Assembly (NCBI GenBank): GCA_964355135.1
Contig: CAYHCG010000006.1
Span: 9,453-73,452 of the forward strand
Reading direction: 5' to 3'
Length of the DNA: 64,000 nucleotides
Source: Candidatus Woesearchaeota archaeon
GTDB taxonomy: Archaea; Nanobdellota; Nanobdellia; Pacearchaeales; GW2011-AR1
Shown here: in pieces, positions 5,303 through 47,736 of the stretch
Position numbering within the stretch: position 1 is the stretch's first letter
Layout: every line of letters begins with the position of its first letter
Translations under genes and position numbers: made by a program
The notes under the pieces: generated by a model
The model's input: the letters and a program-made list of their open reading frames with translations, nothing else
Database searches by the model: none
What the model was told of the DNA's origin: nothing

Positions 5303-5317
5303 CTTGTAGCTCCTTTG

Positions 5318-5339: not shown

Positions 5340-5373
5340 TGAGGTTTATAAACGTTATGGATAAATAATTTGT

Positions 5374-13804: not shown

Positions 13805-14389
13805 ATGATAATTGGGGTAAGTGGGCCTATTGCGGCTGGGACAGATAGTGTGGCGGCCATATTAGTTGAACAAGGATTTAAGTGGTTTTCTTTTTCTGAT
13901 GTATTAAGAGAAGAGGCTAAACTGCGAGGACTAGAGATAAATAGGAAAGCTTTGCAAGATTTGGGAGATGAGTTGAGAAAAACCGGAGGGACTGGAGCTA
14001 TTGCTAAGAAAATAATGGAACAGTTTGTGGAAGGCGAAAACTATGTTGTAGGCAATATCAGAAACCCGGGAGAAGTAGAAGAATTAAAAAAATTAAATGA
14101 TTTTTTTCTTATTAAGGTTGATGCATCTTTAGAAATCAGATTTGAAAGAATTAAATCTCGCAAGAGAGATGATGACGTGCTTGACTTTTCTGAGTTTAAA
14201 AAAGTTGAAGAAAGAGACTTAGGAATTGGACAGGAAGAACATGGTCAGAGACATGCAGATGTTTTTGAATTGGCAGACTTTGAAATTATTAATGAAGGAA
14301 CAGAAGAAGATTTAAGAAAAGAGATAGAAGCTATTCTTTCATTAATAAAGAGAATGCAGCACGCAATGTCGAGAACTGAAAGTTCTTGA
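13805..14389 (+). CDS. P-loop nucleotide-kinase-like protein with degenerate Walker A
   Basis: MIIGVSGPIAAGTDS sits where GxxxxGK[ST] is expected. Kinase-like length and layout. Paralogous to 14503..15057. The last 8 codons and the stop lie inside the hairpin element. Confidence 0.5.
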   Translation: MIIGVSGPIAAGTDSVAAILVEQGFKWFSFSDVLREEAKLRGLEINRKALQDLGDELRKTGGTGAIAKKIMEQFVEGENYVVGNIRNPGEVEELKKLNDFFLIKVDASLEIRFERIKSRKRDDDVLDFSEFKKVEERDLGIGQEEHGQRHADVFELADFEIINEGTEEDLRKEIEAILSLIKRMQHAMSRTESS

Positions 14390-14465
14390 GCACAACAAAG
14401 ATGCAATCTTTGTGCCGTCAAAATATCAAATATTTTGAGGTGATCAAGATACGCATATCTTGACA
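14367..14465. repeat. four-hairpin palindromic element, copy A (MITE/REP-like)
   Basis: The element is TGTCGAGAAC..GTTCTTGA, GCACA(ACA)AAGA..TCTTTGTGC, TCAAAATAT..ATATTTTGA and TCAAGATA..TATCTTGA-CA. Its ends TGTCGAGA and TCTTGACA form an imperfect inverted repeat (one G-U position). A second copy lies at 32356..32453. Confidence 0.7.
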
Positions 14466-14502
14466 TATAAAGTTTTAAAAGCTAGGATTTTATCGTGATT
14501 TT

Positions 14503-20410: not shown

Positions 20411-23400
20411 ATGTCTGAAAAGCTTAAAAGATTTAAGGAAAGAAATAACAGTTTAGCTGAAAGAATATTTTTAGCCCAGAGATATAAAAAAGAAGTAATA
20501 GAAAAAGTACAAAAACTGGTCGCAAAGTTAAATTCTGGAGAAATAACTCGTAAAGATTATGATGAAAGTCTACAGAAAATATTTGGAGTTAGAACACCAA
20601 AAGAATGGCTAACTTATTATGATAATTACATAGAGACTTATGAAAGACAATTAAGTGAAAGCAATAGACAACTTAACAAAGAAAAACTAAAGAAAGCAGC
20701 ATTTGTTTTTGTGCCTATATTTTTAGTTTTATTTTCAGTTATCTTTTTTGTTTATTTCTCAGATAGAGCAATTACGGGATTGGCTGTGCAAAACAGTAAA
20801 GAAGTTTTTACACAAAACATTAATTCCGAATTTAGTTCTAGTGGAAGTTATACTTTTGAGGTTAAACAGAGTGGGAAACTAAATTGGGCTAAAGTTTCCG
20901 GCAATATTGAAGGGGAAGGAAATGTTAAAATTTACTTATTGGCAAACGGAGGTGAGATTTTAGTTTTAGATAGTACTGATTTAGAAGTTGAAGAAGTTGC
21001 TTTAACTGGAGGAGTCATTACTGGATTTAATGTTGAAGGTGCCGAGGACTCTGGAGGAGAGTCTTCTGATAGTTCAAGCGGCGGCTCTTCAGGCAGTCAA
21101 GCAAGTACAGGCGATGTAAGCTCAACTAGTGGAGGAAGTTCTGAAGCTCCTTCACCAACTTCAGAAAGTACTAGCGAAACAACTTCTAGTAGTGATTCAA
21201 GTGAAAGCGCTTCAAGTCCACCTTCTGAGAATACTGTGGAAACTCCTGCAACTACGGAAAGTGAAACTCCTGTTGAAAGTAATGAAGTTAGCAGTGGGAC
21301 AACCTCTGAAGAAGTAATTGCGGGAAATGAATCGCAAAATAATGAGGAAACTAATGCTACTGGCGGTGAACCAACTCAAGAGAACACTACAGTTTCAGGG
21401 CAAACAACAACTAAAGAAAAGAAAAAGAAATTCTCAGATTATTGCAAAGAGAGTTGCGATTTGTCTAATTTGGAATTGGACAGAGATAGTTATGAATTGA
21501 GAGTTGAAATAAATGGGGCGGTAAAATTAAATCTAGATAAGATAAGATATGAGATAGAATTTGAGAAGACAGGAGAAATTATAACAGAAGAAAATGAAAC
21601 TGTACAGAACGAAACAAAAGAAATTACTCCTGAAATTGAATTAAACGAGACTCTTCCTGAGCTAAACCTTACTAATGTAAGTTCTGCTCCATTAATATTA
21701 AAACAAATCCCTAATCTTGAAATAGAAGTTAATTCAAGCTTTAATTTGACTTTAAGTGATTACTTTCTAAATGCCGAAGATTATGATATTAATAAAGTTG
21801 AGAACATTACTTTTGATCTTGCTGGAGATAATCTAGAGATTCTTCCTGATAAGGGCTTTTTGGGGAACAGAACTGCTGAAATAATTGCAGAGAATTCTTT
21901 TGGCAAAAATGAAAGCAATGAGTTTACAATTAATGTTGTTGAAAACATGCCCAAAATAGGAAATGCTACATCTAATATCACAACTTTACAGTATAAGGCG
22001 GTTATCAACAGACCAACTAAGTGGATTAAGATTTTGAACGCAACAGGGGGAGACTTAACTATTGAGCTTCCTAAGGAAGCGGAAAATATAACTGTAAAAA
22101 CGGGAAGCGATGTTGGCCTGGCCCTACAGGAATATGAGGATTATGAAGGGCTGGTTGATGGGGCTGACAAAGAAGATTTAATTTCAGGAGGGATAACGGG
22201 GAATGTAGCATTAGATCTTAAAGAAGGGAAGGGCCTTATACCAAGGTTTATTGATTGGCTGAAGAACTTGTTTTCTAAGGGGATAACTGGTAGAGCAATT
22301 ACGGAGCAAACTCTTGAAGCGCAAATAACCGAGACTAGTGAAAACACCATAGTCGATGTTACAGATATTGTAAATCAGACTCAAACTGGGGAAGTTGCAA
22401 TAGAGTATTACACTCAAGGGCCGGCAGCTAGAGAAGAAAATTTGACTAATGGGAAGAGAGTGGTTGTTTCTGGAAAAGATGAATTAAACTTTACGGATAT
22501 TTTGGCATTTGCAGAAATTGAAGAAAAAGTAGAAGTTGCGGATAGCAGTACAATAAAAATTTATTGGAGGGAAAACGCGAGTTTTATTAATTTTAGTGTA
22601 GGAGATTTGGATGGAAATGGGAAAATAGATTATATTGAATGGATCGTTCCTCATTTAAGCAACCAGACTTATGATATCATACTCATCACCCATGCAGAAC
22701 ATCTTGATAGTAACAGGACATTTATTTCTGATATATATGAAAGTGTTAGGGAATTAGATGGAAATTGGTCGGAGAGTATTGTTGACGGAGAGTATGTTAG
22801 GGTTACTTTTGAGAAGAATTTGACTAATGTTAACGATATCACTGTTTATGCTAAAGGAATAAACGGAACTGGACAAATAGAGGTTTATGAGTTTAATGAC
22901 ACACGTTTACTTGCGACATTCACTGATATACTTAATGAGACTTATTATAAGATTTATTTGACAAACTTAAGTAACTCGAGTAATTATTCACAAGGAGTTT
23001 TTGATTTACGAATTTTAAATGCCTCAGTGGAATTTGATTTAATTATTGATCCAACTTTGACTTTAAATGCTACTGGTGGAACGGGAACAAATACAACTGT
23101 TGAGGCAGGAAACTTTACACATTTGAGCATTGGAAGCTCAACTATTGGATTTGTTAATAATACCAATGTTGTTGCTTATTATCCTTTTGATACTAATACT
23201 TCTTCAAATACTGCCTTTGATTATTCCGCGAATAATTTAGATGCTGGTTTTATTAATACGGGGCCAAGATATGATGCAGGATTACTTGGAAACTCTTATT
23301 ATTTCAATAATTCAGTTTGCTTGAACACAACAAACAGTGCAGCATGGAATGTTACTAATCAGGTAACTCTTTCTGCTTGGGTTTATAGAAATAATAGTGA

Positions 23401-26400
23401 TACGGGCAGTGACTCTATTTTTATGCGAGGAGGCTCAGTTGTAGCAAATACTGAAATTGGTCTTGGAGTATTTCAATCTGGACTTTTAAGATTACTTATA
23501 AAAAATACTACACAGACTAATGCTGGAACATGTAACAGCGGTTCTGCATTACCTACCTTTAATTGGACTCATATTGCAGCGACGTATAATGGAACAACGT
23601 CTGTACTCTATATCAATGGTGTTGCAGAAACTCCTTGTACAGTTACTACTGGGAATATTATCTTTGCTGGAAACTCTCCTAGTATTGGTTGCCTCAAAAC
23701 AACGGCACAAGCATTTAACAACAATTGGCAAGGATGGATAGACGACTTAATGTTTTTGAATACCACTTTAAATGCAACACAAATTTCCCAAATTTATAAT
23801 AATCAAAGCTTGAGATTATTTTCTCGCGGAGAGCAGATATTTTCTAATTTAAATGGCTCGGGTAGTGGGGCTGAAGAAGAAATTAATATAAGGATAAATG
23901 CGAGCATGAATTTTGGCAGTTCGATAAATGTATCTTTAGGGAATTCTTCTGGAGGAACTTATGTTTATGGAAACGAATATGCTTTTAGCAATAATGTTGC
24001 AAATAATATTCCTTTAGGGACTCCAAATAATTATTCTTTAAAGTTTATATTTTATGCAGGTAATTCTTCTGCAAACTCTTTTATATCTCCTACTTTAGAG
24101 AATTATATTCTTGCTGAAAGCATTTTAGTAGTTCCTTCATTGACTTTGAATGCCCCGGCCAATGCAAGTACATTTAAAGAGGGAATATTTAATATAACTC
24201 TGAATGCAACTATTTTAGATAATGCGGCGACGTCAGCATATATTTACGGAGTTAATTCTTCTAACACTGCGAACTTTTACAAACATGGATTATTGTATCA
24301 GGCATTTGGCTTAGTAAATGGAACTCAAATAACTTACAATTGGACTTCTCCCGTAACTGTTCCTGATGCTTCTACTGTTGTCTTGTATCATTTGGATAAT
24401 AATTCTGTTTATGGGGAAAACCAAACTAGGGCTTGGGATTATGTTTCTGGAAATGTTAATTTAACTGCTGTTGGAAATGCTTTTCCAAATGTAAGTGGGG
24501 GGAAATTTGCTGGGGGATGGACTTTTGATGGAAGTGGAGATTATTTGAATGATGCCTCAAATATTGGAGCTTTAAATGGTTATTATCAATCCGGAACATT
24601 TTCTGCATGGGTTAAGAGAGCGGGAGCGAGTTCGAATGGATATGAAACTATAATTCAGGAAGGAGATAATACCAATGGTTTTGTGATAACAAATAATTGC
24701 GGATGGGATAATATGACTCAGGTCGGAACAGTATACATCCCAGAATTTGATCCTGTTGTTGTAATAGCAGAAACACCTAATAGTATTATTTCTGATGGAA
24801 ATTGGCATTTGATTACAGGCGTTTTTGATAATATCATTGCATTTAAACAATATATTTATGTTGATGGAGTACTTAGGAGTTCTGCAAGTGTGGGGGCGCC
24901 TAGTGATAGTGTTAAAGGAGTAAAGGTGGGAGGAGTACTGTCTTCCGTAGGGCAGAGTTGTGACGGAAGTGCAAATGCTGGCTCATTCAATGGAAGCATT
25001 GATGAAGTTGGAATTTGGAATAGGAGTTTAAGCGCAACTGAGATAATGAGCATGTATAGATTAAATGCACCGAAGTATTTTTGGAAAGTAAATGTTACGG
25101 ATTCTGTTGGAAATAGTAATGAGAGTGAGACACGCGAGTTTTATGTGAATCCTCAGACTGTTCCTTATACTGCATTGAATGGGCCTGCGAACAGGTCTAT
25201 ATTTTGGAAAGATATATTTAACATTACTTTGAATGCGACTGGTTATGATAATGATGATAGTTTTACTATTGAGATTTACGGGGCGAATTCTACAAATGCC
25301 ACTCTCTTTTATAATTATGGATTACTTTATAGACAGCAGGGAGTCAGTAATAATACGGCAGTTAGTTATAATTGGACTAATTCACTTGTAGATCCGGATA
25401 TTTATCTATATGCAGATGCCTTGTATCATTTAGATAATAATTCCAGATTAGGGGAGAATGATACAAGAGTGATTGATTCTTATACTGGAGATGGCGATGC
25501 TTTTAATTTAACACCTGTAGGAAACGCATATCCAAATATGACGGGAGGAAAATTTGCAGGGGCTTGGGAATTTGACGGAAATGGAGATTTTCTAAATGGT
25601 TCAAACTCTTTGCGCCCTGCCGGTGATCCTTCTTTTTCTGCATGGGTACGGCGAGCAGGAAATAGTTCAACTGGATATGAAACTATTGTTCAGGATAATG
25701 CAGGAAGTGGAGGGTATTCTTTAACTGCCAGCTGTAATAATAGTTTATTAGCGTTTTCAGCATATGATGGTACTTTGTTTGCAAAAGCTTCAACATCTAA
25801 TTCTATTCTCTCTGATGGTCAGTGGCATCATGTTTTGGGCATTCATAGTTCTTCTTACTCTAAAATTCTTTTATATGTTGATGGAGTTTTAAAAGCAAAT
25901 GCAACTTCATCAGTAGCTGTTCCGATAAACGATCCACATAAATTAGTTATAGGGGGTCATGGGGCAGGAGATTATGGTAGTGGTCCAGGAGGGACATCTT
26001 GTGTCTTTGGCGGCTCTTCTAGTGCAGGTTCATTCAACGGAAGTATTGATGAAGTTGCAGTCTGGAATAGCGATGTTTTTCAAATAGACACTGGCAGCGG
26101 TTTACATCTTAATACTAGTAATTTATATAAACTTATTAAAGGAAAATATTATTGGAAAGCAAACATTACTGATTCCTTGGGGAATAATAATGAAAGCGAA
26201 ACTCGCGAATTCGTTGTTAGGGATACGCCTTATGTTTTAGTGAATTCAAATATGAATTGCACCGACTTAAAGACTGAGGCTGTAAATTATTATTATGGTT
26301 ATTCTTGCACTGCTTCTGGGTATTCTACTTGTGTTGGACTAAATGCAGATTTGAATATTACAAATGGAACTTTGAGTGTTCCTTCAAATTGTAACATTCA

Positions 26401-29299
26401 ATTTAATCAAAGCAGTAATGGGCAGTATAGTTTTATTATTGAAGGAACTGGGAAATTGAATTTGAGCGGGGGGAATATTACCTCATCTTCTTCAACAAGT
26501 AGATTCAATTTAACTTCTTCAGTTGGAGTTATCAATTATCCTGGAAGTTATGGGAACTTTAGTTCTGCGAATGTTGTGGGGAGCGCTAATTTCTCTGATT
26601 CAAGAATTAATTTTTACAATTTTAATATAACTGGGCGGATGATAATTCTGAATTCGACGGATATCGCAACTACAGGGTATTCTATTGGTAGCGGGGGTAG
26701 ACTTGATAGGCAGTGGAGGTTGAATGTTACTGTTTTGGCCTCTGGCGCAGTAGTTTCAGGAGCAAATGTAACTGCAAGGAATGTTTCATTAAATATATTT
26801 GATTCTAAATCCACAGGTTCTGATGGCGCAGCCTGGCTTAATCTTTCAGAGTATGTAGATACTGGTTCGGGTAAAATGCATCAAAATAATTATACGATTA
26901 ATGTTACGAAGAATGGATATTTTGCAAACAGTACCACTATTAATTTGACTAGTGATAGTAGCAAATTGATAACCCTTGGAACGTATGATACCATTGAAGT
27001 TTCAAGTACTGAAACTTTACATGACGTATTTGCAAGAATTAACGATGTAACAATTTTTAATAATCTGAGTTCTGCATCTAGACCTTGCAGATATGTTGCT
27101 AGTGCATCGATAAATATCACTAGCGGGCATTTGGTTATGGAAGGATGTACCTTGGAGATGAATAGTAGCTTAGATAGTACTTATAAATTAATAGTTGGAG
27201 GTGGTCGATTGACTGCTAATTACTCAAATATAACTAGATTCGGATCTAATAATTACGACTTTTACACTGCGTCATCTGCGGCGACGCAGGTTGTTTTGAA
27301 GAATAGTTTTGTTTCAAGAGCGGGACACTTAAATTCTCCAAATTTGAGAGGTTTGACTTTGAATACAAATAATGTGACTTTTATTAATAATACTTTAGTT
27401 GATGCAGATGTTGCAAATTTAGAATTAGGAGCAAATGGAATAGTTGTTGAAAAATCTTTATTTTTGGGTCCTTCTGGAGTTACTAATTATCCTATTTTTG
27501 TGAGTGCTAATGATTCTATCATTTTAGATTCAAATTTGTCTGGTTCAACTGAAGAAGATGTGAGATTATCTTCTAGAACAAACATTACTTTTTTAAATAC
27601 AAATTATACGGATGAGGGTTTGGAAGCTGGAGCAGTTAATGTTTCCTTATTCAAAAAATGGTATGCGGGTGTTAGGGTTATAAATTCCAGCGGTGGCGGG
27701 GTTGAGAATGTAAACGTTACATTCTATAACAATAGCGGGAGTTTAACTCAAAGTGCATTGACAAATTCTTCTGGAGATATAGATACGCAGAATGTGACTC
27801 AATATGTTTCTAATGGGACAAACAGATTTTATCACACAAATTACAATATTACTGCAACAAAAGTAGATGGCATAAATGGTACAATAAATGTTAACATAAC
27901 CCAGAGTACCAATTATACAATTAGTCTTTCAACTTCTACACCAACAGTAACTTTTGTTTCTAGTATAGGAAGTGTAAATCCTTTGGGCGCAAGCGTCAGG
28001 AATATTACTTTTAACTTTACTGTCCAGCACGGAGACGGAGGGGAATATATCAACATTACAAGTTCTAAGGCTAATTTTACTTACGGAACGGAACCAATTA
28101 GATTAAACGACACTTGTAACTTACTGACAGATCAAAATACATCCACTACTCGAAACTTTACTTGTACTATTGGAATGTGGTATTTTGACGTTGCTGGAGA
28201 TTGGAATGTAAGCATTTATGTTGCAGATACGAGAGGTAATTCTACAACAAATATAACTACATTTACTTATGCAACATTACAGGATTTTGTTGTTTCCCCG
28301 ACATTGGTCACATTTGGAACTATAAGTCCTATTGATGTCAATAAGACTCCCTCAAATGATCCTTGGATATTGAATAATACCGGAAATTATGATCCGGTAA
28401 ATATTTCTATAGTCGCATTAAACTTACATGGGGAGACGACACAGTCGGAGTTTGTAGGGGCAGGTAACTTTAGCGCGTCTAATAATACGAGCTCCCCACC
28501 TTCTCCTTTGGAATGTAGCGGAAATTCTTTAATTAACGGTACAAATGTGAACATAACTAATGCTATTTTACCTAGGGGAAATAATTCTCTGAATTATGTT
28601 AATTCGACAAGTGGGCAAGAACAGTTATATCTCTGCCTTAAACAAATTCCTTCTGCGCTTTCGCAGCAGACTTATTCCACAAGTGGAGCGGGGGCTTGGT
28701 CAATCAGGATTTTAGTTGGCGTCTTTGCAGTTGGAGGAGGAATAAACAGAAAGAGAAAAAAGAAGTCGAACAAGCATAATAATTTGCTGGAGCTTGATGC
28801 TGAAAACATACTCGAGGTGCTGGATAAAAGATTAAGAGAGACTTACGAATTAGGATTAAATGAGATATTAGATATTGCAAGGAAGAGAAATGCAAAGAAG
28901 GAAACCAATAGGGAAGTAAAGAAAGAAATAAAGATACCAATTGAGGTGTTCAGTCAGAAAATTGGAATTTCAGAATCAATCTGCAAGTATCTTAGGGATA
29001 ATCTCCATTTAAGATATAACGAAATCTCCAGAGTGGTAGGCAGAGATCAAAGAACTGTTTGGAATAATTATAGAAATGCAAATAAGAAGATGAATGAAGA
29101 AATTAAAGTCAATGAGAAAACCATGTATATTCCAATGAAGGCATTTTTGAATAATAAATTAAGTATGCTTGAAAGTGCAATCTTTTACCTTAGAGAAGAG
29201 AGATATAGAAATATAGAAATTGCTTCTATGCTTGGAAAGGATCCAAGAAACATTTGGACCATATATAATAGGGCGAAGAGAAAAACTAATGGTAATTAA
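20411..29299 (+). CDS. giant surface protein A (2962 aa)
   Basis: N-terminal ~95-aa cytoplasmic domain, then a TM (aa ~96-116, nt 20696-20758) and a Ser/Thr/Glu-rich linker. LamG/ConA-like motifs follow (WTHIAATYNGTTSVLYINGV; SFNGSIDEVGIWNRSLSATEI; GSIDEVAVWNS). After a beta-helix-like region (~26230-27900) and a terminal Ig-like module containing MWYFD come the hydrophobic segment AWSIRILVGVFAVGGGI (about 28694-28744), RKRKKK and the HTH tail. GGAGG RBS. Confidence 0.9.
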   Translation: MSEKLKRFKERNNSLAERIFLAQRYKKEVIEKVQKLVAKLNSGEITRKDYDESLQKIFGVRTPKEWLTYYDNYIETYERQLSESNRQLNKEKLKKAAFVFVPIFLVLFSVIFFVYFSDRAITGLAVQNSKEVFTQNINSEFSSSGSYTFEVKQSGKLNWAKVSGNIEGEGNVKIYLLANGGEILVLDSTDLEVEEVALTGGVITGFNVEGAEDSGGESSDSSSGGSSGSQASTGDVSSTSGGSSEAPSPTSESTSETTSSSDSSESASSPPSENTVETPATTESETPVESNEVSSGTTSEEVIAGNESQNNEETNATGGEPTQENTTVSGQTTTKEKKKKFSDYCKESCDLSNLELDRDSYELRVEINGAVKLNLDKIRYEIEFEKTGEIITEENETVQNETKEITPEIELNETLPELNLTNVSSAPLILKQIPNLEIEVNSSFNLTLSDYFLNAEDYDINKVENITFDLAGDNLEILPDKGFLGNRTAEIIAENSFGKNESNEFTINVVENMPKIGNATSNITTLQYKAVINRPTKWIKILNATGGDLTIELPKEAENITVKTGSDVGLALQEYEDYEGLVDGADKEDLISGGITGNVALDLKEGKGLIPRFIDWLKNLFSKGITGRAITEQTLEAQITETSENTIVDVTDIVNQTQTGEVAIEYYTQGPAAREENLTNGKRVVVSGKDELNFTDILAFAEIEEKVEVADSSTIKIYWRENASFINFSVGDLDGNGKIDYIEWIVPHLSNQTYDIILITHAEHLDSNRTFISDIYESVRELDGNWSESIVDGEYVRVTFEKNLTNVNDITVYAKGINGTGQIEVYEFNDTRLLATFTDILNETYYKIYLTNLSNSSNYSQGVFDLRILNASVEFDLIIDPTLTLNATGGTGTNTTVEAGNFTHLSIGSSTIGFVNNTNVVAYYPFDTNTSSNTAFDYSANNLDAGFINTGPRYDAGLLGNSYYFNNSVCLNTTNSAAWNVTNQVTLSAWVYRNNSDTGSDSIFMRGGSVVANTEIGLGVFQSGLLRLLIKNTTQTNAGTCNSGSALPTFNWTHIAATYNGTTSVLYINGVAETPCTVTTGNIIFAGNSPSIGCLKTTAQAFNNNWQGWIDDLMFLNTTLNATQISQIYNNQSLRLFSRGEQIFSNLNGSGSGAEEEINIRINASMNFGSSINVSLGNSSGGTYVYGNEYAFSNNVANNIPLGTPNNYSLKFIFYAGNSSANSFISPTLENYILAESILVVPSLTLNAPANASTFKEGIFNITLNATILDNAATSAYIYGVNSSNTANFYKHGLLYQAFGLVNGTQITYNWTSPVTVPDASTVVLYHLDNNSVYGENQTRAWDYVSGNVNLTAVGNAFPNVSGGKFAGGWTFDGSGDYLNDASNIGALNGYYQSGTFSAWVKRAGASSNGYETIIQEGDNTNGFVITNNCGWDNMTQVGTVYIPEFDPVVVIAETPNSIISDGNWHLITGVFDNIIAFKQYIYVDGVLRSSASVGAPSDSVKGVKVGGVLSSVGQSCDGSANAGSFNGSIDEVGIWNRSLSATEIMSMYRLNAPKYFWKVNVTDSVGNSNESETREFYVNPQTVPYTALNGPANRSIFWKDIFNITLNATGYDNDDSFTIEIYGANSTNATLFYNYGLLYRQQGVSNNTAVSYNWTNSLVDPDIYLYADALYHLDNNSRLGENDTRVIDSYTGDGDAFNLTPVGNAYPNMTGGKFAGAWEFDGNGDFLNGSNSLRPAGDPSFSAWVRRAGNSSTGYETIVQDNAGSGGYSLTASCNNSLLAFSAYDGTLFAKASTSNSILSDGQWHHVLGIHSSSYSKILLYVDGVLKANATSSVAVPINDPHKLVIGGHGAGDYGSGPGGTSCVFGGSSSAGSFNGSIDEVAVWNSDVFQIDTGSGLHLNTSNLYKLIKGKYYWKANITDSLGNNNESETREFVVRDTPYVLVNSNMNCTDLKTEAVNYYYGYSCTASGYSTCVGLNADLNITNGTLSVPSNCNIQFNQSSNGQYSFIIEGTGKLNLSGGNITSSSSTSRFNLTSSVGVINYPGSYGNFSSANVVGSANFSDSRINFYNFNITGRMIILNSTDIATTGYSIGSGGRLDRQWRLNVTVLASGAVVSGANVTARNVSLNIFDSKSTGSDGAAWLNLSEYVDTGSGKMHQNNYTINVTKNGYFANSTTINLTSDSSKLITLGTYDTIEVSSTETLHDVFARINDVTIFNNLSSASRPCRYVASASINITSGHLVMEGCTLEMNSSLDSTYKLIVGGGRLTANYSNITRFGSNNYDFYTASSAATQVVLKNSFVSRAGHLNSPNLRGLTLNTNNVTFINNTLVDADVANLELGANGIVVEKSLFLGPSGVTNYPIFVSANDSIILDSNLSGSTEEDVRLSSRTNITFLNTNYTDEGLEAGAVNVSLFKKWYAGVRVINSSGGGVENVNVTFYNNSGSLTQSALTNSSGDIDTQNVTQYVSNGTNRFYHTNYNITATKVDGINGTINVNITQSTNYTISLSTSTPTVTFVSSIGSVNPLGASVRNITFNFTVQHGDGGEYINITSSKANFTYGTEPIRLNDTCNLLTDQNTSTTRNFTCTIGMWYFDVAGDWNVSIYVADTRGNSTTNITTFTYATLQDFVVSPTLVTFGTISPIDVNKTPSNDPWILNNTGNYDPVNISIVALNLHGETTQSEFVGAGNFSASNNTSSPPSPLECSGNSLINGTNVNITNAILPRGNNSLNYVNSTSGQEQLYLCLKQIPSALSQQTYSTSGAGAWSIRILVGVFAVGGGINRKRKKKSNKHNNLLELDAENILEVLDKRLRETYELGLNEILDIARKRNAKKETNREVKKEIKIPIEVFSQKIGISESICKYLRDNLHLRYNEISRVVGRDQRTVWNNYRNANKKMNEEIKVNEKTMYIPMKAFLNNKLSMLESAIFYLREERYRNIEIASMLGKDPRNIWTIYNRAKRKTNGN
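28745..29296 (+). other. C-terminal tail of giant A with two sigma70-region-4/LuxR-like HTH units
   Basis: Unit 1 is about 28928-29092 (ISESICKYLRDNLHLRYNEISRVVGRDQRTVWNNYRNANKK). Unit 2 is about 29124-29290 (LSMLESAIFYLREERYRNIEIASMLGKDPRNIWTIYNRAKRK). Compare the sigma r4 pattern LS..E..V..L....G.S..EIA..LG.S..TV....hRA..KL. Confidence 0.65.
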
Positions 29300-32229: not shown

Positions 32230-32528
32230 ATGTGTTTATGTTACTATACTTATGAGGAAAAGTCTGCCAAAGATTATATGGAAGGCAAAATGACTATGAC
32301 TGAGGCAGCAAGAAAAGCAAGTTTAACGGTCTGGGAAATGGAAAAATATTTGATATGTCAAGAATTTTCAATTCTTGAGCACAACAAAAATTAAGGATTT
32401 TTGTGCCATCAAAATAAGAATTTTGAGGTGATCAAGATGCGCGCATCTTGACAGAAAAAGGTTACAAATCCGATTATTCTGTTGATGACTTAGAAAAAGA
32501 ATTAAATTTAATGGAAAGAAGGTTATAA
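32230..32528 (+). pseudogene. UPF0175-like small gene split by the four-hairpin element
   Basis: The 5' part (32230-32355) encodes ...MTEAARKASLTVWEMEKYLI. The 3' part (32454-32528) encodes EKGYKSDYSVDDLEKELNLMERRL*. The 98 nt between them (32356-32453) are the element, and removing them joins the two parts in frame. Confidence 0.5.
32356..32453. repeat. four-hairpin palindromic element, copy B
   Basis: Same hairpin order as copy A: TGTCAAGAATT..AATTCTTGA, GCACA(ACA)AAAAT..ATTTTTGTGC, TCAAAAT..ATTTTGA, TCAAGATGC..GCATCTTGA-CA. Substitutions relative to copy A are paired across the stems. Confidence 0.7.
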
Positions 32529-34824: not shown

Positions 34825-37800
34825 ATGACTGAAAAAATTGATTTTCTAAATGAGAAAAGAAAGGAATTACTGGAAAGAATTAATGTTGCGCAAAATTACA
34901 AAAAAGAAGTTGGCGAAAAAGTTCAGAAACTTGCAGCAAGATTTAGCATAGGAGAACTGAATTTTTTTGAGTATCATCAGGAACTGAAGAAAAATTTTGG
35001 AGATAAGTCGCCTGCTGATTGGATCGAGTACTATGACAAGTATATTGAAAAGTGCCGCACGGAGCTTAAAAAGTGCGGCGAAGAAATAAACGAGTTGAGA
35101 ATAAAAAAAGTTGCAAGATTTTCTCCTTTGATTTTGGTTATTTTTATCTTTGCACTAGTTCTTTATTATAATTTTAAAGATAGTTCTATCTTACTTTCAC
35201 CTTCCGAAATATTCACTGAAAAAATAAATTTTGTGGCTAGTGAAGATGGTTCATTTATGTTTGAGCCACAACAGGGAGGGAGACTTAGCAGTTTGAGAAT
35301 TTCAGGAGATATTAATGGAGGAGGAAATGTTAAAATTTATCTCCAAGCGAATGGAAATGAATTATTGATTTTAGATAGCGACGCTATAGGGTATAAAGGA
35401 ATAAGCGGGCTTGCAATAGAAGAATTCGATAGAGTTCTTGATGAAAATGAAAGTATTGAGAAAAATGCAACTATTTTAGTGGAAGAGAATATTGAAACTA
35501 TTGAAGTTAACGATAGTTTAGATGATATAGAAAATAAAACTGAAGCTAACTCAGAAATCAAAAAAGGATTTGTTAATTATTGCAATGAAACTTGTGATTT
35601 AGACAGTATTGATTTAGGAGACTCTTATGAAATAAAAATTGTGATAGGGGGAGAGGCCGAGGTTATAATTGAGGAGATTAACTATAAGATTACTAAGAAA
35701 GAGGTAAGAGAAGATATCGAAATAGAAACTCCTAGAAATGAGACAAATCAGACTGTAGTTAGAGATATAGAAAAAATTGAAAGAAAAAATGCACAAGGAA
35801 AAGAAGTAGTTGTGAAGAAAAAGCAAGGCGAGAAAAATATAATTGTAGAGACTACAGTTCCTATTGAGTGGAACGTGAAAGACGCAGGAAAAATCAGAGT
35901 AAGATGGAAAGAAGGAGGAGAAGAAATTAATTTTAATGGTGAAGATACAAATAATGACGGAATTATCGATAGTATTACTTGGGTTGTCAGTGATCTAGAA
36001 AGAGATCAAACTTATGAAATTATTGTGATCACAAAAGCAGAACATCTTGATACTGATAGAAGTTTTGTTAGTGATATTTACGATTTAGTTAAAGAGCAAG
36101 ATGGAGTTTGGAGTGAGAGTATTGGGGATGGAGAGTATGTAAGAGTTACTTTTGAAATCCCCCTTGATAGTACGAGAGATATAACACTCTGGTCTAGAAC
36201 GGTGAGTGGGAATCCTCGCGTTGAAGTGTATGAAACAAATGGAAATGTAACAGTTGCTTCATTTGAAAGTTTGAATGATGACGAATATAATAAGGTTTAT
36301 TTGACGGGACTTTCTGGAACACAAGAGACATTTGATTTGAGAGTTGTTGATGGTTCAATTGAACTCGATCATGTTATTGATCCTTATTTTTCTGATAAGG
36401 TTAAACTGTATTTTAATAATACTGCTACTCCAATTGGAGGAGCATGTCCTACTGGAAATAAAAAAATGGGAACTGCTGCACCCAACTCTGTTGTTATAAT
36501 CTGGCCTGGAGAGTTTGACAGCGGTGTTCCTGGGAATACGGATGCAGGGCAGTGGTATTCTGGGAGTGTTAACAGAGCAAATACGACATTATCTACTCAA
36601 ATTGCTAGCGCTACCCAGAGTTCAAGAAATTCAAATAGCTTCGGGCAGGGATGGATGTACGATGAGGATTTGACAGGACTGACTTTAGATGCAGGAAACT
36701 TTAGTTTTAATCTTTCTTTGATGGGTGGGCAGATGTCTGCAATAAACAGCGCAGAAAGGATCTTTGCCAGAATAAGTGTTGTTAATTGTAATGGTGGGAA
36801 TTTTAATTTAGTGCAAGATCTCACATCGACCAATATTGTTGGGGAAATAAGTCATACTGGGGGTCAAAACGGGTGGAAGGCAAATGAGGGAGGAAGAATA
36901 AACCATCCAGCTGTTTCTGCCGTCGTAAATGTCAATGTTAATTTTTCAACAAATCCTTATACATTCAAAAATGGGGAGATGTTGTTTATAGAATTGGGAT
37001 TTGGAGATGCTAGTAGCAACATTGATAGAACTATAGGATTGAGATACAATATTGCAAATTCTTTTGTTGTGACTCCTCCGTTTTTAGATAATACTCTGCC
37101 TTATGCTATTTTGAATGAACCTATGAATGACTCTAGATTTGTGGTAGGCGTATTTAACATTTCATTGAATGCAACAGTTGCTGATGAAACTATTTCTGAC
37201 TTGCTAAATGGGGAAATTTATGGGGTGAGAAACGGAAATGAGGCAGATTTTTACAAACATGGATTATTGAGTCGGAGATTTAATTTTACTAATGGAACGC
37301 AGGCGGTTTATAACTGGACTGCTCCTGTTGTAATTCCTGATGCTTCTACTGTTGTATTGTATCATTTAGATAATAATTCAAGATACGGAGAGAGTCAGAC
37401 CGAAGCAGTAGATTATGTTTCCGCGAATGTTAATTTAACTCCCGTCGGGAATGCTTTTCCTAATCAGACTAGCGGAAAGTTTGCAGGAGGGTGGGAATTT
37501 GACGGAAACGGAGACTACTTGGGTGATGCTTCCAATTTAGGGGCATTAAACGGAGTGGATAATGCAACTTTTGCTGCGTGGATAATGAGGGCTGGAGCAA
37601 GTTCTACGGGTCTAGAAGTTATTGTTCAGGAAGGTGGGCAGGGCAGAGGATTGGCACTGATTGCGAACTGCAACAATAACATGATGCAGTTTGGGGTAAA
37701 AGAAGGAGGCGTTTATTATGCTGCTAATGCATCTACTTTCTTGCTTAATGATGAGAACTGGCATCACTTGGCCGGAGTGTATGATGGGGATGCAGACACT

Positions 37801-39702
37801 ATTAAATTATATTTTGATGGTGTTTTAATGAATACTACTATTGCTACTACAGATATTGTAAATCCTGCTGTTGGAATAAGAGTTGGAGGAAGTGGTGGGG
37901 GAATTAGTCAGGGAACTTCATGCGCTTCTTCTAGTGTGGCAAGTTCATTTAATGGGACGATAGATGAAGTAGGAATATGGAATAGTAGCTTGACTGCTAG
38001 TGAAATAAAAGATCTTTATAGATTGAAAGTCGGAAAATATTATTGGAAAACTAACGTAACTGACCAGATTGGAAATAACAATGAAAGCGAGACAAGAGAA
38101 TTTACGGTAATTAATTCCCTACCTATTATATCTGATGTCAATGCAACGAACGTAACGCAGAACTTTGCAATGATCAACTGGACAACAGATTATGAGACTA
38201 ATAGTAGTGTTAATTTTGGCACGAATATGGCTTTGGGAACTAATATAAGTGAAAATATCTTAATCACAAAACATAATATTAGTCTAGCTGGTCTTTTATC
38301 AAATACACTTTATTTTTACAACGTAACTAGCTGCAGTTTTGATAATTTCTGTTCTACTAGCGGAACTTTTAATTTCACTACTTTAGCTTTATCTAATCAG
38401 GCTCCGGTTGTTAATTTTGTTAATTTTACGGATACAGGCGCTGTTCTGGGGGGAGTACAACCTGTTTTAATTAATTTCACTGTAAGCGACCAAAATGGTT
38501 TTGGAGATATAAATGACCCTAGTTCTAAAGTTGAAATTTACAATCTAAGCTTAACTGGCGCAGTAAGAGTAAATTCAACTTGCAGCGCAGTAGGTAATGT
38601 TGATGCAGATACAAGAAATTATAATTGCGTTGTTGGAATGTGGTATTTTGATCCTTATGGAATGTATACAGTGAACGTTACTATAAGAGATAATGCAGGG
38701 GCAAGAGCAGAGAATTCAAGCAGAGTTTTCCAGTTTATAGCTACTCCAGGATTTACTATGTCTCCTAATAGTATTAGTTGGCCTACCTTAAGTCCTGGGC
38801 AGAGCAATATACCGTCTATTGAAAATTTAACAATAAATAATACCGGAAACGTGGCTTTTTACAATGTTAGCATTACTGCTTTTAATCTAACTGGCGTAAC
38901 TGATTCAGGAAATTATATTCCTGCTATGAATTTCTGGGGCGGAGTAAGCTTTAACCAATGCAGCGCTCCTGCGACACAATTGAGAGACGATGGCAGCGTC
39001 AATATAAGTAACGCCTTTCTAAATACTGGGAATTTGTCTATTGGGGCAGGCGCGGGTCAGGAAGAAATATTTTTCTGCCTAGCTAGCGTTCCTGATCCTT
39101 TGCTCAAACAGACTTACTCTACTGAGGTTGGAAATCCCTGGCAAATTGAATTATTTACTGCAGCTTTGGTCTTGAGTGGATCAGTTGGCAGAAAGAGAAA
39201 AAGGAAAATAACTCTGGAAAATGAAGATTTACTTGAACTCTTGGGAGATAGGCTGGAAGAATTACTCGAATTAGTTAAGGCGAACAAATTAAGGGAAAAT
39301 AAGGTTGCAGAAAATAAAGAAATAGTTGTTCCTTTAGATATCTTTAAGCAAGAGGGCGGAGCTGCAGAGTCTTTATGCAAGTATCTTAAAGATAATAAAG
39401 GGATGAAGTTCAGCGAGATTGCGAGATTATTAAAAAGAGACAGAAGAACAATAAGCTTGAATTATAAGAATACGCAGACTAAAATACTGCCAGAGAATTT
39501 TGGCGAAAATGAATTTTACGTTCCTGTACGGATATTCTCCGATCGCAGACTAAGCATACTTGAGAGTCTTGTGTCATATCTAAGAAATAAGGGCTATAAG
39601 AATGTCGAAATTGCAAAAATGCTTGAGCGTGACCAGAGAAATGTCTGGACACTGCACTCCAGGGCAGCTAAAAAATTAAGAGTAGAAAATAAGAATATTT
39701 AA
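34825..39702 (+). CDS. giant surface protein B (1625 aa), paralog of A
   Basis: The N-terminal domain aligns with A (LERINVAQNYKKEVGEKVQKLAARF vs AERIFLAQRYKKEVIEKVQKLVAKL). TM at ~35113-35175. It carries the shared AEHLD module, a LamG unit (~37096-38109; ENWHHLAGVYDG...LYFDGVL; SFNGTIDEVGIWNSSLTASEI) and FN3 (INWTTDYETNSSVNFG...LYFYNVTS). It ends with the MWYFD Ig module, WQIELFTAALVLSGSVG + RKRKRK, and the tail. Confidence 0.9.
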   Translation: MTEKIDFLNEKRKELLERINVAQNYKKEVGEKVQKLAARFSIGELNFFEYHQELKKNFGDKSPADWIEYYDKYIEKCRTELKKCGEEINELRIKKVARFSPLILVIFIFALVLYYNFKDSSILLSPSEIFTEKINFVASEDGSFMFEPQQGGRLSSLRISGDINGGGNVKIYLQANGNELLILDSDAIGYKGISGLAIEEFDRVLDENESIEKNATILVEENIETIEVNDSLDDIENKTEANSEIKKGFVNYCNETCDLDSIDLGDSYEIKIVIGGEAEVIIEEINYKITKKEVREDIEIETPRNETNQTVVRDIEKIERKNAQGKEVVVKKKQGEKNIIVETTVPIEWNVKDAGKIRVRWKEGGEEINFNGEDTNNDGIIDSITWVVSDLERDQTYEIIVITKAEHLDTDRSFVSDIYDLVKEQDGVWSESIGDGEYVRVTFEIPLDSTRDITLWSRTVSGNPRVEVYETNGNVTVASFESLNDDEYNKVYLTGLSGTQETFDLRVVDGSIELDHVIDPYFSDKVKLYFNNTATPIGGACPTGNKKMGTAAPNSVVIIWPGEFDSGVPGNTDAGQWYSGSVNRANTTLSTQIASATQSSRNSNSFGQGWMYDEDLTGLTLDAGNFSFNLSLMGGQMSAINSAERIFARISVVNCNGGNFNLVQDLTSTNIVGEISHTGGQNGWKANEGGRINHPAVSAVVNVNVNFSTNPYTFKNGEMLFIELGFGDASSNIDRTIGLRYNIANSFVVTPPFLDNTLPYAILNEPMNDSRFVVGVFNISLNATVADETISDLLNGEIYGVRNGNEADFYKHGLLSRRFNFTNGTQAVYNWTAPVVIPDASTVVLYHLDNNSRYGESQTEAVDYVSANVNLTPVGNAFPNQTSGKFAGGWEFDGNGDYLGDASNLGALNGVDNATFAAWIMRAGASSTGLEVIVQEGGQGRGLALIANCNNNMMQFGVKEGGVYYAANASTFLLNDENWHHLAGVYDGDADTIKLYFDGVLMNTTIATTDIVNPAVGIRVGGSGGGISQGTSCASSSVASSFNGTIDEVGIWNSSLTASEIKDLYRLKVGKYYWKTNVTDQIGNNNESETREFTVINSLPIISDVNATNVTQNFAMINWTTDYETNSSVNFGTNMALGTNISENILITKHNISLAGLLSNTLYFYNVTSCSFDNFCSTSGTFNFTTLALSNQAPVVNFVNFTDTGAVLGGVQPVLINFTVSDQNGFGDINDPSSKVEIYNLSLTGAVRVNSTCSAVGNVDADTRNYNCVVGMWYFDPYGMYTVNVTIRDNAGARAENSSRVFQFIATPGFTMSPNSISWPTLSPGQSNIPSIENLTINNTGNVAFYNVSITAFNLTGVTDSGNYIPAMNFWGGVSFNQCSAPATQLRDDGSVNISNAFLNTGNLSIGAGAGQEEIFFCLASVPDPLLKQTYSTEVGNPWQIELFTAALVLSGSVGRKRKRKITLENEDLLELLGDRLEELLELVKANKLRENKVAENKEIVVPLDIFKQEGGAAESLCKYLKDNKGMKFSEIARLLKRDRRTISLNYKNTQTKILPENFGENEFYVPVRIFSDRRLSILESLVSYLRNKGYKNVEIAKMLERDQRNVWTLHSRAAKKLRVENKNI
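39190..39699 (+). other. C-terminal tail of giant B with two sigma70-region-4/LuxR-like HTH units
   Basis: Unit 1 is about 39321-39487 (AAESLCKYLKDNKGMKFSEIARLLKRDRRTISLNYKNTQTK). Unit 2 is about 39513-39677 (LSILESLVSYLRNKGYKNVEIAKMLERDQRNVWTLHSRAAKKL). Confidence 0.65.
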
Positions 39703-47416: not shown

Positions 47417-47736
47417 TTAATTGTTTGTATATAAAGTATATCTACTTTATAGAACAATAGTTATTTTATACGAAATGAATTCGTCTAAAATAAGAATTCA
47501 TGAGAAACTTGCTTTCGAATGAATTACTATCTGTGCTTAAGCACCTATGCGCGAATAGCGCATTAACTTGTTGTATATAAAGTATATCTACTTTATAGGA
47601 ATTTAGCTATTTTGTTTGAAGCATCAAGATGCAATACATCTTGAACGAAGTGAATTCGTATAAAATAAGAATTTATTCAAAATTTACTTTTGAACTAAAT
47701 TACTAAATGTGCGTAAGCACTTTGTCTAACAAGGCA
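47414..47736. repeat. tandemly duplicated intergenic unit (~147 and ~170 nt) rich in hairpins
   Basis: TGTATATAAAGTATATCTACTTTATAG is identical at 47425-47451 and 47571-47597, and each unit ends GCATTAA(A)C. Hairpins are GTGCTTAAGCAC / GTGCGTAAGCAC, ATGCGC-GAATA-GCGCAT, and in unit 2 TCAAGATG-CAATA-CATCTTGA. Confidence 0.7.

What the first reader, a model, noticed from the sequence alone, without database searches (positions are those of the whole stretch)
32230..32528. Element copy B interrupts a UPF0175-like ORF, and precise removal of 98 nt restores the reading frame
- The upstream part encodes ...MTEAARKASLTVWEMEKYLI (HTH-like, as in UPF0175 antitoxin-type proteins) and then runs into the element and stops.
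- Immediately after the element, in another frame, comes EKGYKSDYSVDDLEKELNLMERRL*. This is the expected continuation (compare the family pattern L.e.gi...y..edleeDl).
- Deleting exactly 32356-32453 (98 nt, the element from TGTCAAGA to TCTTGACA) joins ...YLI to EKGY... in frame.
- Copy A similarly sits in the last codons of gene 13805-14389 and supplies its stop codon. Removing 14367-14465 would give ...MQHAI*.

This is either insertional disruption by a mobile element with a preference for gene 3' regions, or, more exotically, an excisable intervening sequence.
Basis: partly seen in the sequence, partly recalled or inferred. Interest (0 to 1): 0.65.

Follow-up and report, generated by a model that had tools for sequence, protein, structure and literature searches.

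The report
Small hairpin transposon splits antitoxin-like gene
A 98-base mobile hairpin repeat, common in tiny groundwater (DPANN) archaea, has landed precisely inside a small antitoxin-like gene and broken it, so this is gene disruption by an undescribed transposase-less element family and not an intron.

Summary
Deleting window 32356-32453 (98 nt, TGTCAAGA...TCTTGACA) rejoins ...WEMEKYLI to EKGYKSDYS.... Uninterrupted UPF0175 homologues read exactly this sequence, and a DNA alignment shows one clean 98-nt gap. Copy A (14367-14465) sits one codon before the stop of a small kinase gene.

The element belongs to a large family found only in Woese-/Pace-/Nanoarchaeota groundwater genomes. It is non-coding and has 8-9 bp terminal inverted repeats. 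It is built as a mosaic of hairpins: two outer TCAAGA..TCTTGA hairpins, with or without a two-hairpin core.

- Four filled/empty comparisons show no target-site duplication.
- Half of 74 copies, including A and B, lie directly 3' of a one-sided TTNAYA hexamer. In copy B that hexamer is host coding sequence.
- The core and the hairpin loops occur in both orientations. Stems show no G·U excess, and there is no Rfam match.
- A BHB splice motif is thermodynamically implausible (+13.5 kcal/mol).
- No contig lacks the insert, and no RNA data exist.

Best reading: a DNA insertion by a transposase-less small mobile repeat. It resembles the SMR and PATE elements of Haloquadratum, and its targeting behaviour resembles IS200/IS605. 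The mobilising enzyme was not found. The gene is an orphan, truncated antitoxin homologue.

The parts
32230..32355 (+). 5' part of the UPF0175-like gene (42 codons, ...WEMEKYLI). As it stands the ORF runs on to a stop at 32392-32394 inside the element, giving a 54-aa product (P0001).
32350..32355 (+). TTGATA, the host-encoded hexamer (Leu-Ile codons) directly 5' of the element. It matches the family's one-sided flank motif TTNAYA and is the inferred targeting sequence.
   Evidence: Homologues keep L-(I/V) at this position.
32356..32453 (+). Element copy B, 98 nt, non-coding, with terminal inverted repeats TGTCAAGA / TCTTGACA. The boundary is ambiguous by one base: 32355-32452 gives the same joined product.
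32358..32378 (+). Outer hairpin P1 (TCAAGAATT-TTC-AATTCTTGA).
32379..32431 (+). Central 'core' module, absent from the commoner core-less relatives. It carries hairpins P2 (32384-32404) and P3 (32409-32426), flanked by GAGCAC / GTGATC.
32432..32451 (+). Outer hairpin P4 (TCAAGATG-CGCG-CATCTTGA).
32454..32528 (+). 3' part of the UPF0175-like gene (EKGYKSDYSVDDLEKELNLMERRL*), now out of frame with the 5' part.
14367..14465 (+). Element copy A, 99 nt, with the same four-hairpin build. It lies one codon before the stop of the AAA_17/AAA_18 kinase-like gene 13805-14389 and supplies seven codons plus the stop (MSRTESS*).
14466..14471 (-). TTTATA on the minus strand (TATAAA on the plus strand, which is the Ile and stop codons of the restored gene). 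This is the TTNAYA flank motif for copy A. It lies on the opposite strand to copy B's, while the two cores point the same way.

Best explanation
Copy B is a DNA insertion of a small, transposase-less mobile repeat. It landed inside a solitary UPF0175 (antitoxin-type HTH) gene, 24 codons before its stop. The gene now encodes a 54-residue truncated product with an element-encoded tail.

What is shown:
- The insertion is exactly 98 nt and makes no target-site duplication.
- The family is multi-copy and confined to Woese-/Pace-/Nanoarchaeota genomes.
- Its members are mosaics of hairpins bounded by TGTCAAGA...TCTTGACA.
- The commonest form is a 117-120 nt two-arm element. Copies A and B are short-armed derivatives that carry an extra two-hairpin core in the central palindrome.
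- Insertion is oriented and occurs directly 3' of TTNAYA.
- The core and the hairpin loops flip by small inversions, arms are exchanged between copies, and copies nest in one another and in other repeats.

What is inferred: the element most likely moves in the manner of IS200/IS605-type elements. That means single-strand 'peel and paste' by a HUH/Y1 transposase supplied in trans, cutting after TTGAYA at the target/left-end junction and after the similar TTGACA at the right end. The features pointing this way are targeted, oriented, duplication-free insertion together with hairpins at both ends. The enzyme was not identified.

Confidence is about 0.85 that this is a mobile-element insertion that broke the gene, and about 0.4 for the HUH-type mechanism.
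For: Precise 98-nt insertion:
- Homologues read straight across the junction.
- The DNA alignment shows one clean gap.

No duplication at four independent sites:
- Copy B.
- Copy A.
- L057 and L128, compared with empty copies of another repeat in L058, L061 and L147.
- L090, compared with two empty paralogous sites.

Family size and host range:
- The core-containing pattern was found only in Woesearchaeota MAGs among 596 Gb of genomes, and in 26 groundwater metagenome contigs.
- The core-less pattern was found in 72 stretches, nearly all from Woese-/Pace-/Nanoarchaeota MAGs.
- Neither pattern was found in viral contigs.

Target motif:
- 37 of 74 non-redundant copies have TTNAYA on exactly one side and none have it on both. 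About 0.8 would be expected by chance.
- In 24 of 24 master-type copies the motif is next to arm X, and 23 of 24 share the same strand sense.
- In copies B, A and L052 the hexamer is host coding sequence.

DNA-level rather than RNA-level behaviour:
- The core is inverted between otherwise identical copies (L054 versus L062 and L068), loops are flipped, and arms are chimeric.
- Both strands fold equally well.
- Stem mismatches are G·T 6 versus A·C 5.

The interrupted allele is fixed wherever it was sampled.

Published archaeal precedents: PMC3119063 describes transposase-free elements without target duplication (PATEs and SMRs), and states that IS605-type integration depends on a 4-6 bp targeting sequence.
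Against: - No parent element carrying a transposase between the same ends was found in about 0.8 Mb of related loci.
- The only Y1 transposase genes seen (L067, L111) have different end hairpins. In L111 the gene is itself a victim of the element.
- The element has 8-9 bp terminal inverted repeats, and its hairpins start 2-3 nt from both ends. This is unlike classical IS200/IS605 ends.
- Half of the copies lack a strict TTNAYA flank, for example the sites GAAT^TCTCC and TTCCA^T.
- Conserved hairpins with compensatory changes would also fit a functional RNA or a protein-binding DNA element.
- There are no transcript data.
Confidence: 0.85

Rival explanations
1. The 98 nt are an intron removed from the mRNA, either by the archaeal splicing endonuclease at a bulge-helix-bulge (BHB) motif or by self-splicing. 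On this reading the full 66-aa UPF0175 protein is still made.
For: - Removal restores the frame and the exact family sequence.
- The 3' gene fragment is still intact.
- The target UUGA and the terminal UUGA could form a 4-bp helix (U-A, U·G, G·U, A-U). That helix would place both boundaries after the second base of 3-nt bulges, which is the BHB cleavage geometry.
Against: - The BHB-like conformer has no flanking helices. It is 13.5 kcal/mol less stable than the MFE fold, and its pairs have probabilities of 1e-7 to 1e-8.
- No Rfam intron or ribozyme family matches.
- Most copies are intergenic.
- The core occurs in both orientations.
- Frame restoration is expected for any duplication-free insertion.
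- Copy A needs no removal for its host gene to work.
Confidence: 0.04
2. The element is a functional structured unit: a small RNA gene, a bidirectional transcription terminator, or a REP-like mRNA or protein-binding element. On this reading it was spread or retained for its function, and the UPF0175 overlap is a side effect.
For: - There are four stable hairpins (z-scores -3 to -7), and 6 of 38 pairs show compensatory changes.
- Conserved internal bulges in the master form recur across distant genomes.
- Many copies lie at gene ends, and 9 supply stop codons.
- T-runs are present on both strands of the long arms.
Against: - There is no excess of G·U over A·C in the stems.
- The core and loops flip without loss of the element.
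- There is clear insertion polymorphism into genes, pseudogenes and other repeats.
- There is no Rfam match.
- Palindromes keep their complementarity at the DNA level without any selection on RNA.
Confidence: 0.07
3. The element is a substrate of a site-specific (tyrosine or serine) recombinase that acts on the repeated TCTTGA-N4-6-TCAAGA palindromes. It would be an invertible or excisable DNA cassette rather than a transposon of the HUH type.
For: - The central site TTCTTGA-GCATGC-TCAAGAA and the predicted circle junction TCTTGACA|TGTCAAGA are perfect palindromes with recombinase-like arm-spacer-arm geometry.
- The core is inverted exactly between inverted TTCTTGA/TCAAGAA repeats.
- There is no target duplication.
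Against: - No recombinase gene recurs near the elements.
- Hairpin loops as short as 3-5 nt also flip. That fits template switching or intrastrand recombination better than an enzyme site.
- The insertion sites share only TTNAYA and no sequence resembling an attachment site.
Confidence: 0.04

Closest known systems
SMR-A 'small mobile repeats' of Haloquadratum walsbyi (HqIRS42/43/55; Dyall-Smith et al. 2011, PMC3119063)
   Same: Both are about 110 bp and too short to encode a transposase. Both have prominent terminal inverted repeats unrelated to any known transposon, make no target duplication, are numerous, show strong target preference and are often found inside palindromes of other mobile elements. 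In both cases the mobilisation is unknown (compared).
   Different: The host phylum differs (DPANN versus Halobacteria), and sequence similarity was not tested. Here there is a one-sided TTNAYA flank with strict polarity, a modular hairpin mosaic with an optional invertible core, and most copies are not inside other elements.
PATEs and IS200/IS605-type (IS605/IS1341) elements
   Same: Both make no target duplication, have palindromes next to both ends, and insert in an oriented way beside a 4-6 nt targeting sequence (my knowledge of IS608 and ISDra2). IS200/IS605 is the most widespread IS family in archaea (PMC13343696). Y1_Tnp genes exist in related contigs.
   Different: PATEs are defined as lacking terminal inverted repeats, and this family has them. 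Its hairpins start 2-3 nt from both ends. No tnpA- or tnpB-bearing parent with the same ends was found, and the Y1 genes seen have different end hairpins.
[quoted passage not shown]
   Same: Both are small, non-coding, multi-copy, have terminal inverted repeats, nest within one another and sit at gene ends.
   Different: There is no target-site duplication at four tested sites, and no related autonomous IS was found.
Bacterial REP/BIME/REPIN elements with RAYT transposases
   Same: Both are mosaics of paired hairpins and are mostly extragenic at gene ends. Both keep their palindromes through compensatory changes and are presumed to be mobilised by a HUH-type enzyme.
   Different: There is no GTAG-type 5' motif. 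No RAYT gene is flanked by the repeats; the one adjacent Y1 gene is a truncated target. These elements are archaeal and they insert into ORFs.
Archaeal bulge-helix-bulge introns in protein-coding genes (e.g. cbf5 of Crenarchaeota; from my knowledge)
   Same: Both are short, sit precisely inside an ORF, have no flanking duplication, and removal restores the protein.
   Different: No stable BHB can form. The family is mostly intergenic and occurs in both orientations.

Membership tests
MITE | Small, non-coding, multi-copy | tested here: met
   The elements are 98-99 nt and hold no ORF of their own. There are dozens of copies in related genomes.
MITE | Terminal inverted repeats | tested here: met
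   The ends are TGTCAAGA / TCTTGACA, often ATGTCAAGA / TCTTGACAT.
MITE | Target-site duplication | tested here: not met
   Four filled/empty comparisons show none. Flanking bases at the two ends do not co-vary.
MITE | Ends shared with an autonomous IS | tested here: not met
   No long element with these ends was found in about 0.8 Mb of related loci. No recurrent transposase family lies near the copies. Whole genomes were not searched.
PATE / IS200-IS605-type non-autonomous element | No target duplication | tested here: met
PATE / IS200-IS605-type non-autonomous element | Short targeting sequence beside one end, with oriented insertion | tested here: met
   TTNAYA is one-sided in 37 of 74 copies against about 0.8 expected. 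Polarity is consistent in 24 of 24 master-type copies. The hexamer is host-encoded in copies B and A. Half of the copies deviate from the strict motif.
PATE / IS200-IS605-type non-autonomous element | Near-terminal palindromes | tested here: met
   Hairpins P1 and P4 start 2-3 nt from the ends.
PATE / IS200-IS605-type non-autonomous element | Devoid of terminal inverted repeats | tested here: not met
   An 8-9 bp inverted repeat is present.
PATE / IS200-IS605-type non-autonomous element | Palindromes similar to those of a tnpA/tnpB-bearing element | tested here: not met
   The ends of the Y1_Tnp elements in L067 and L111 show no similarity above shuffled controls.
SMR-A (Haloquadratum small mobile repeats) | About 110 bp, prominent inverted terminal repeats, no target duplication, no related transposon | tested here: met
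   The definition comes from PMC3119063.
SMR-A (Haloquadratum small mobile repeats) | Preferential insertion into palindromes of other mobile elements | tested here: inconclusive
   This was seen in the stem of a second hairpin repeat (L057, L128) and inside sister elements. Most copies, however, are in unique DNA.
SMR-A (Haloquadratum small mobile repeats) | Sequence relationship to HqIRS42/43/55 | not tested
Archaeal BHB intron | Bulge-helix-bulge motif with both splice sites in 3-nt bulges flanked by helices | tested here: not met
   Only a U-A/U·G/G·U/A-U central helix is possible. The flanking helices score 2 of 4 and 1 of 4 pairs. The conformer costs +13.5 kcal/mol and its pair probability is at most 5e-7.
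Archaeal BHB intron | Spliced transcript | not testable with these tools
   No RNA run holds the locus.
Group I/II introns and self-cleaving ribozymes (Rfam) | Match to a covariance model | tested here: not met
   No match reached the gathering score. The best E-value hits are chance miRNA-hairpin matches.
Programmed translational bypass (T4 gene 60 type) | Matching take-off and landing codons with a stop directly after take-off | tested here: not met
   The take-off codon is AUA and the codon before the landing site is ACA. The next in-frame stop is 12 codons on.
UPF0175 (PF03683), host gene | Profile match and homology that continue across the junction | tested here: met
   The restored protein scores 26.6 bits, just under the 27.9-bit cut-off. 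It is 53-62% identical to five proteins that all match PF03683, with no indel at the junction.
REP/BIME with RAYT | Conserved 5' GTAG-type motif and a RAYT gene flanked by the repeats | tested here: not met
   There is no such motif. Y1 genes occur in only 2 of about 110 loci and are not flanked by the repeats.

The most novel reading that the evidence does not exclude
The family could be a so far undescribed kind of hairpin-bounded element in DPANN archaea. It would move as single-stranded DNA, by a HUH enzyme or another enzyme not yet recognised, and would excise precisely. Interruptions such as the one in the UPF0175 gene would then be reversible at the DNA level. That would make it a true 'excisable intervening sequence', with the invertible core and flipping loops as by-products of its hairpin chemistry.
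Probability: 0.2. Interest if true: 0.6.

Novelty: new member of a known kind. Interest (0 to 1): 0.38.

Why it matters
For the genome, the practical point is annotation. The 54-aa ORF at 32230-32394 is a UPF0175 gene truncated by an insertion, and the tail of the kinase-like gene at 13805-14389 is element-encoded.

More broadly, small non-autonomous mobile repeats have not been described in Woese-/Pace-/Nanoarchaeota in the literature I could search. Here a single family is present in many groundwater genomes from several continents. It marks rearrangement breakpoints and reshapes gene ends.

The family combines terminal inverted repeats, duplication-free insertion and a one-sided hexamer target. 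That combination sits between the two enigmatic transposase-free classes defined in Haloquadratum (SMRs and PATEs). It offers a second, independent system in which to ask what mobilises such elements. If a HUH-type enzyme does, the family would be a compact natural substrate for studying single-strand transposition in archaea.

Tried and rejected
- Rfam at the gathering threshold on the whole window, and at E<=10 on copy B and on a master copy, gave nothing meaningful.
Rejected.
- Translational bypass was rejected.
- RNA evidence: no run holds the locus.
- Population evidence for empty sites: contigs from four DNA runs show no joint that lacks the insert. Contigs do drop rare variants.
- The first 18-mer scan of the genome collection returned mostly chance hits, with one true copy.
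- Viral contigs gave no hit for either element pattern.
- I searched for an autonomous parent in four ways, all negative:
  - Orphan ends and long TIR pairs; L067:4544-6911 turned out to be a chance pair.
  - Unpaired arm-X copies.
  - Clustering of all ORFs near the elements.
  - tblastn with a Y1 transposase.
- Similarity between the IS200-like ends and the master element was not above shuffled controls.
- A TA or AT target duplication was considered because many copies are flanked by TA...TA. It was rejected because the two flanks do not co-vary and copies B and A lack it.
- A 6-bp duplication (TTGATA/TTGACA) was rejected because the 3' TTGACA is constant whatever the target variant.
- Virtual excision of all copies, to find essential genes split in the middle, gave only gene ends, pseudogene fragments, one in-frame read-through (L082) and one unannotated 105-codon ORF (L108).
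- The ORF merged across the L057 element is not coding-like.

Full report
**1. The observation**

ORF 32230-32394 encodes MCLCYYTYEEKSAKDYMEGKMTMTEAARKASLTVWEMEKYLI. It then runs into the element and stops after CQEFSILEHNKN. Directly after the element, in another frame, comes EKGYKSDYSVDDLEKELNLMERRL*.

Deleting 32356-32453 (98 nt, TGTCAAGA...TCTTGACA) joins the two parts in frame.
- The restored 66-aa protein hits Pfam UPF0175 across the junction (E 4.9e-6, 26.6 bits against a cut-off of 27.9, profile positions 29-74 of 75). The unrestored ORF scores 12.5 bits.
- A search of 5.8 billion proteins returned the window's own truncated product and five uninterrupted homologues, 48-62% identical over the alignment. 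These read ...WEMEKYL(I/V)(E/D)(K/R/N)G(Y/F)K(S/A)... with no indel at the junction. All five match PF03683.
- At the DNA level, the closest homologue (L069:2665-2871) aligns with a single 98-nt gap. Its empty site is CTTAT^AGAAAAAGG.

Copy A is also as described. The AAA_17/AAA_18 kinase-like gene 13805-14389 ends ...KRMQHAMSRTESS* inside the element. Removing 14367-14465 gives ...MQHAI* at 188 aa. That is the length of the nearest uninterrupted homologues P0008 and P0009, and P0009 ends ...GFKGAI. A 98%-identical variant, P0007, carries the same element-encoded tail.

The interrupted UPF0175 allele is on at least 10 contigs from independent assemblies of Hainich groundwater (wells H51 and H52, and runs ERR3858110-12), so it is not an artefact.

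**2. What the element is**

Copies A and B are 83% identical. Both fold into four consecutive hairpins (P1-P4), and their differences in P1, P2 and P4 are compensatory. The window is archaeal: it holds an intron-bearing tRNA, is 35% G+C and has DPANN-like homologues.

Pattern scans located the family.
- The core-containing form occurs in two Candidatus Woesearchaeota MAGs among one genome per species of 185,579 species. It also occurs in 26 groundwater metagenome contigs.
- A core-less form occurs in 72 stretches, nearly all from Woese-, Pace- and Nanoarchaeota MAGs from several aquifers and lakes.
- Viral contigs hold neither form.

The anatomy is modular.
- The basic unit is ATG-TCAAGAA..TTCTTGA-GCATGC-TCAAGAA..TTCTTGA-CAT.
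- The commonest version is 117-120 nt and has two long arms. Arm X contains ...CGTAAACTCCCTACTTTAGTTCGTGAG.... Arm Y contains a conserved AACACGC bulge and a variable, compensating upper stem.
- Short-armed versions of 50-57 nt exist.
- Copies A and B are short-armed versions that carry an extra two-hairpin 'core' in the central palindrome. The core reads CAAAAAT..ATTTTTG-TGCCA-TCAAAAT..ATTTTGA.
- An alignment of ten short copies gives 38 base pairs, 6 of them with compensatory changes.

**3. DNA-level behaviour**

- Between otherwise identical copies with the same flanks, the core is inverted (L054 versus L062, L068 and L056). The loops of P2 and P3 are also flipped (AAAG/CTTT, GAAA/TTTC).
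- Arms are exchanged between copies (L043 versus L065; L050 versus L057).
- Elements nest in each other's loops (L041, L051, L052, L085) and sit at rearrangement breakpoints (L062 versus L068).
- Both strands fold equally well as single strands (z-scores -7.0 and -6.2 for copy B).
- In 52 hairpins, mismatches beyond the conserved foot are G·T 6 and A·C 5, so there is no RNA-type wobble excess.
- No Rfam family matches.

These points argue for a DNA element whose palindromes matter as DNA. They argue against a strand-specific RNA.

**4. How it inserts**

Joining the flanks of every copy and searching for them among the fetched loci gave further filled/empty pairs.
- L057:6483-6585 (103 nt, with core) and L128:56-109 (54 nt, core-less) lie at cattcgaat^tctccag. 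This is in the stem of a second hairpin repeat, which is uninterrupted in L058, L061 and L147.
- L090:7079-7129 lies at ttcca^t, a site that is empty in two paralogous gene fragments.

Together with copies B and A, this makes four independent sites without target-site duplication. Only 1-nt ambiguities remain.

The flanks carry a one-sided motif.
- 37 of 74 non-redundant copies have TT-N-A-(T/C)-A directly 5' of one end and none have it at both ends. About 0.8 would be expected by chance.
- In 24 of 24 master-type copies the motif is next to arm X, and 23 of 24 share the same strand sense.
- Near-variants such as TTGATAA account for many of the remaining copies.
- The hexamer is target rather than element. 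In copy B it is TTGATA, the Leu-Ile codons of the conserved YLIEKGY. In copy A it is TTTATA on the minus strand, which is the Ile and stop codons of the gene. In L052 it is the last codons of a 410-aa gene.

The element's own 3' end, TTGACA, resembles the target.

Targeted, oriented, duplication-free insertion next to terminal hairpins is how IS200/IS605-type elements and their PATE derivatives behave (PMC3119063; my knowledge of IS608). I therefore infer single-strand mobilisation by a HUH/Y1-type enzyme acting in trans. This is an inference only.
- No parent element was found.
- The two Y1_Tnp genes in related contigs have unrelated end hairpins.
- One of them (L111) is itself truncated by the element, 3' of TTTATA.

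**5. Context and consequence**

Of 67 non-redundant copies with enough flanking sequence, 54 are intergenic, 9 supply the stop codon of an upstream ORF, 1 overlaps a 5' end and 3 lie in ORFs. Virtual excision found no essential gene split in the middle. It found gene ends (copy A, L052), pseudogene fragments (L037, L090), one in-frame read-through (L082) and one unannotated ORF (L108). The apparent preference for 3' ends is best read as survivorship in compact genomes combined with an AT-rich target.

The UPF0175 gene here is solitary. No PIN or DUF3368 partner lies nearby: an AAA_14/DUF4143 ATPase is upstream and a secreted protein is downstream. It also lacks the N-terminal RHH part that the longer homologues have. 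It now loses its last 24 residues. The intact 3' fragment indicates either a fairly recent insertion or too little time for decay.

**6. The exotic reading**

- For the two splice pairs that would give the right product, one geometry places both boundaries after the second base of 3-nt bulges, separated by a UUGA:UUGA helix. The helix is U-A/U·G/G·U/A-U, and the flanking helices are absent.
- The conformer is 13.5 kcal/mol above the MFE, and its pairs have probabilities of 1e-7 to 1e-8. This is most simply a by-product of the similarity between the target and the element's end.
- Bypass signals are absent.
- No RNA run holds the locus.
- Contigs of four DNA runs show the occupied form only. 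The core of the element is at about three times the flank depth, which reflects other copies.

RNA-level removal is therefore unsupported. Precise excision at the DNA level is plausible for this kind of element but has not been observed.

**7. Comparison and novelty**

The closest described things are the transposase-free elements of Haloquadratum walsbyi (PMC3119063).
- SMR-A repeats are about 110 bp, have prominent inverted terminal repeats and make no target duplication. They show strong target preference, often sit inside palindromes of other elements, and their mobilisation is described as 'enigmatic'.
- PATEs have no inverted terminal repeats but have near-terminal palindromes, make no duplication and have a 4-6 nt targeting sequence.

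The present family shares the SMR definition and adds PATE-like targeting. It fails the MITE definition on target duplication and the PATE definition on terminal repeats.

I found no paper that links DPANN lineages to MITE-like elements. A 2026 survey of archaeal ISs did not cover non-autonomous elements.

I rate it a new member of a known kind. It is a solid, ordinary explanation for the gene interruption, and it comes with a moderately interesting, undescribed element family.

Noticed in passing
window 47624-47644: A solo hairpin, TCAAGATGCAATACATCTTGA, lies between convergent genes. It has the same stem foot as P1/P4 of the element but lacks the TGTC/GACA ends. It may be a remnant of an element or a free-standing member of the hairpin module.
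   Followed up: partly
window 12286-12407 (-): Rfam calls a 122-nt tRNA here (56 bits) that ARAGORN does not report. It is presumably an intron-bearing archaeal tRNA.
   Followed up: no
window 13805-14389 and 14503-15057: These are tandem paralogous small P-loop kinase-like genes (AAA_17/AAA_18; some sources name the homologues 'dephospho-CoA kinase'). Element copy A sits between them.
   Followed up: partly
window 20411-29299, 34825-39702, 52104-61103: Three giant ORFs of 2962, 1625 and 2999 aa lie on the plus strand. They were not examined.
   Followed up: no
L082:2617-2709: A 93-nt core-less element lies in frame and without a stop inside an LPG_synthase_TM gene (Pfam E 2e-33 after removal). 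It would add 31 residues if translated.
   Followed up: partly
L057:6443-6625; empty copies at L058:3453-3532, L061:1305-1384, L147:2029-2108: This is a second hairpin repeat family, tatGGAGAATTCG-gttgattaggttacctttcatt-CGAATTCTCCa. The TGTC..GACA element is inserted in its 3' stem in L057 and L128.
   Followed up: partly
L054:5515-5675 versus L062:1726-1885, L068:1356-1515, L056:2694-2945: The arms are the same and the flanks are partly the same, but the central core is inverted. The P2 loop is also flipped between L062 and L056. These are small inversions between inverted repeats.
   Followed up: yes
L067:8697-9152 (-) and L111:922-1302 (-): These are IS200-like Y1_Tnp genes. The L067 copy is intact (151 aa). 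The L111 copy has a 1-nt deletion, and its 3' end is cut off by a 219-nt nested element inserted after TTTATA.
   Followed up: yes
L037:4421-4542 and 5312-5368; L090:7079-7129: Repeated 5' fragments of a glycosyltransferase gene (..STFPR^WKDDT..) carry the element at the same codon boundary. An intact paralogue in L090 (3872-5152, -) has the empty site.
   Followed up: partly
L108:2340-2459: A 120-nt master copy splits a 105-codon ORF, ...DKIPPI|YIKKYEVNNVWRIELADRWRLTYTI.... The sequence looks toxin-like to me, but it has no Pfam hit at E<=0.01.
   Followed up: partly
L125 (VGJV01000002.1, labelled Candidatus Liptonbacteria): This is one pattern match in a MAG labelled as a CPR bacterium. It may be a chance match, a mis-binned contig or a transfer. 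It was not examined.
   Followed up: no
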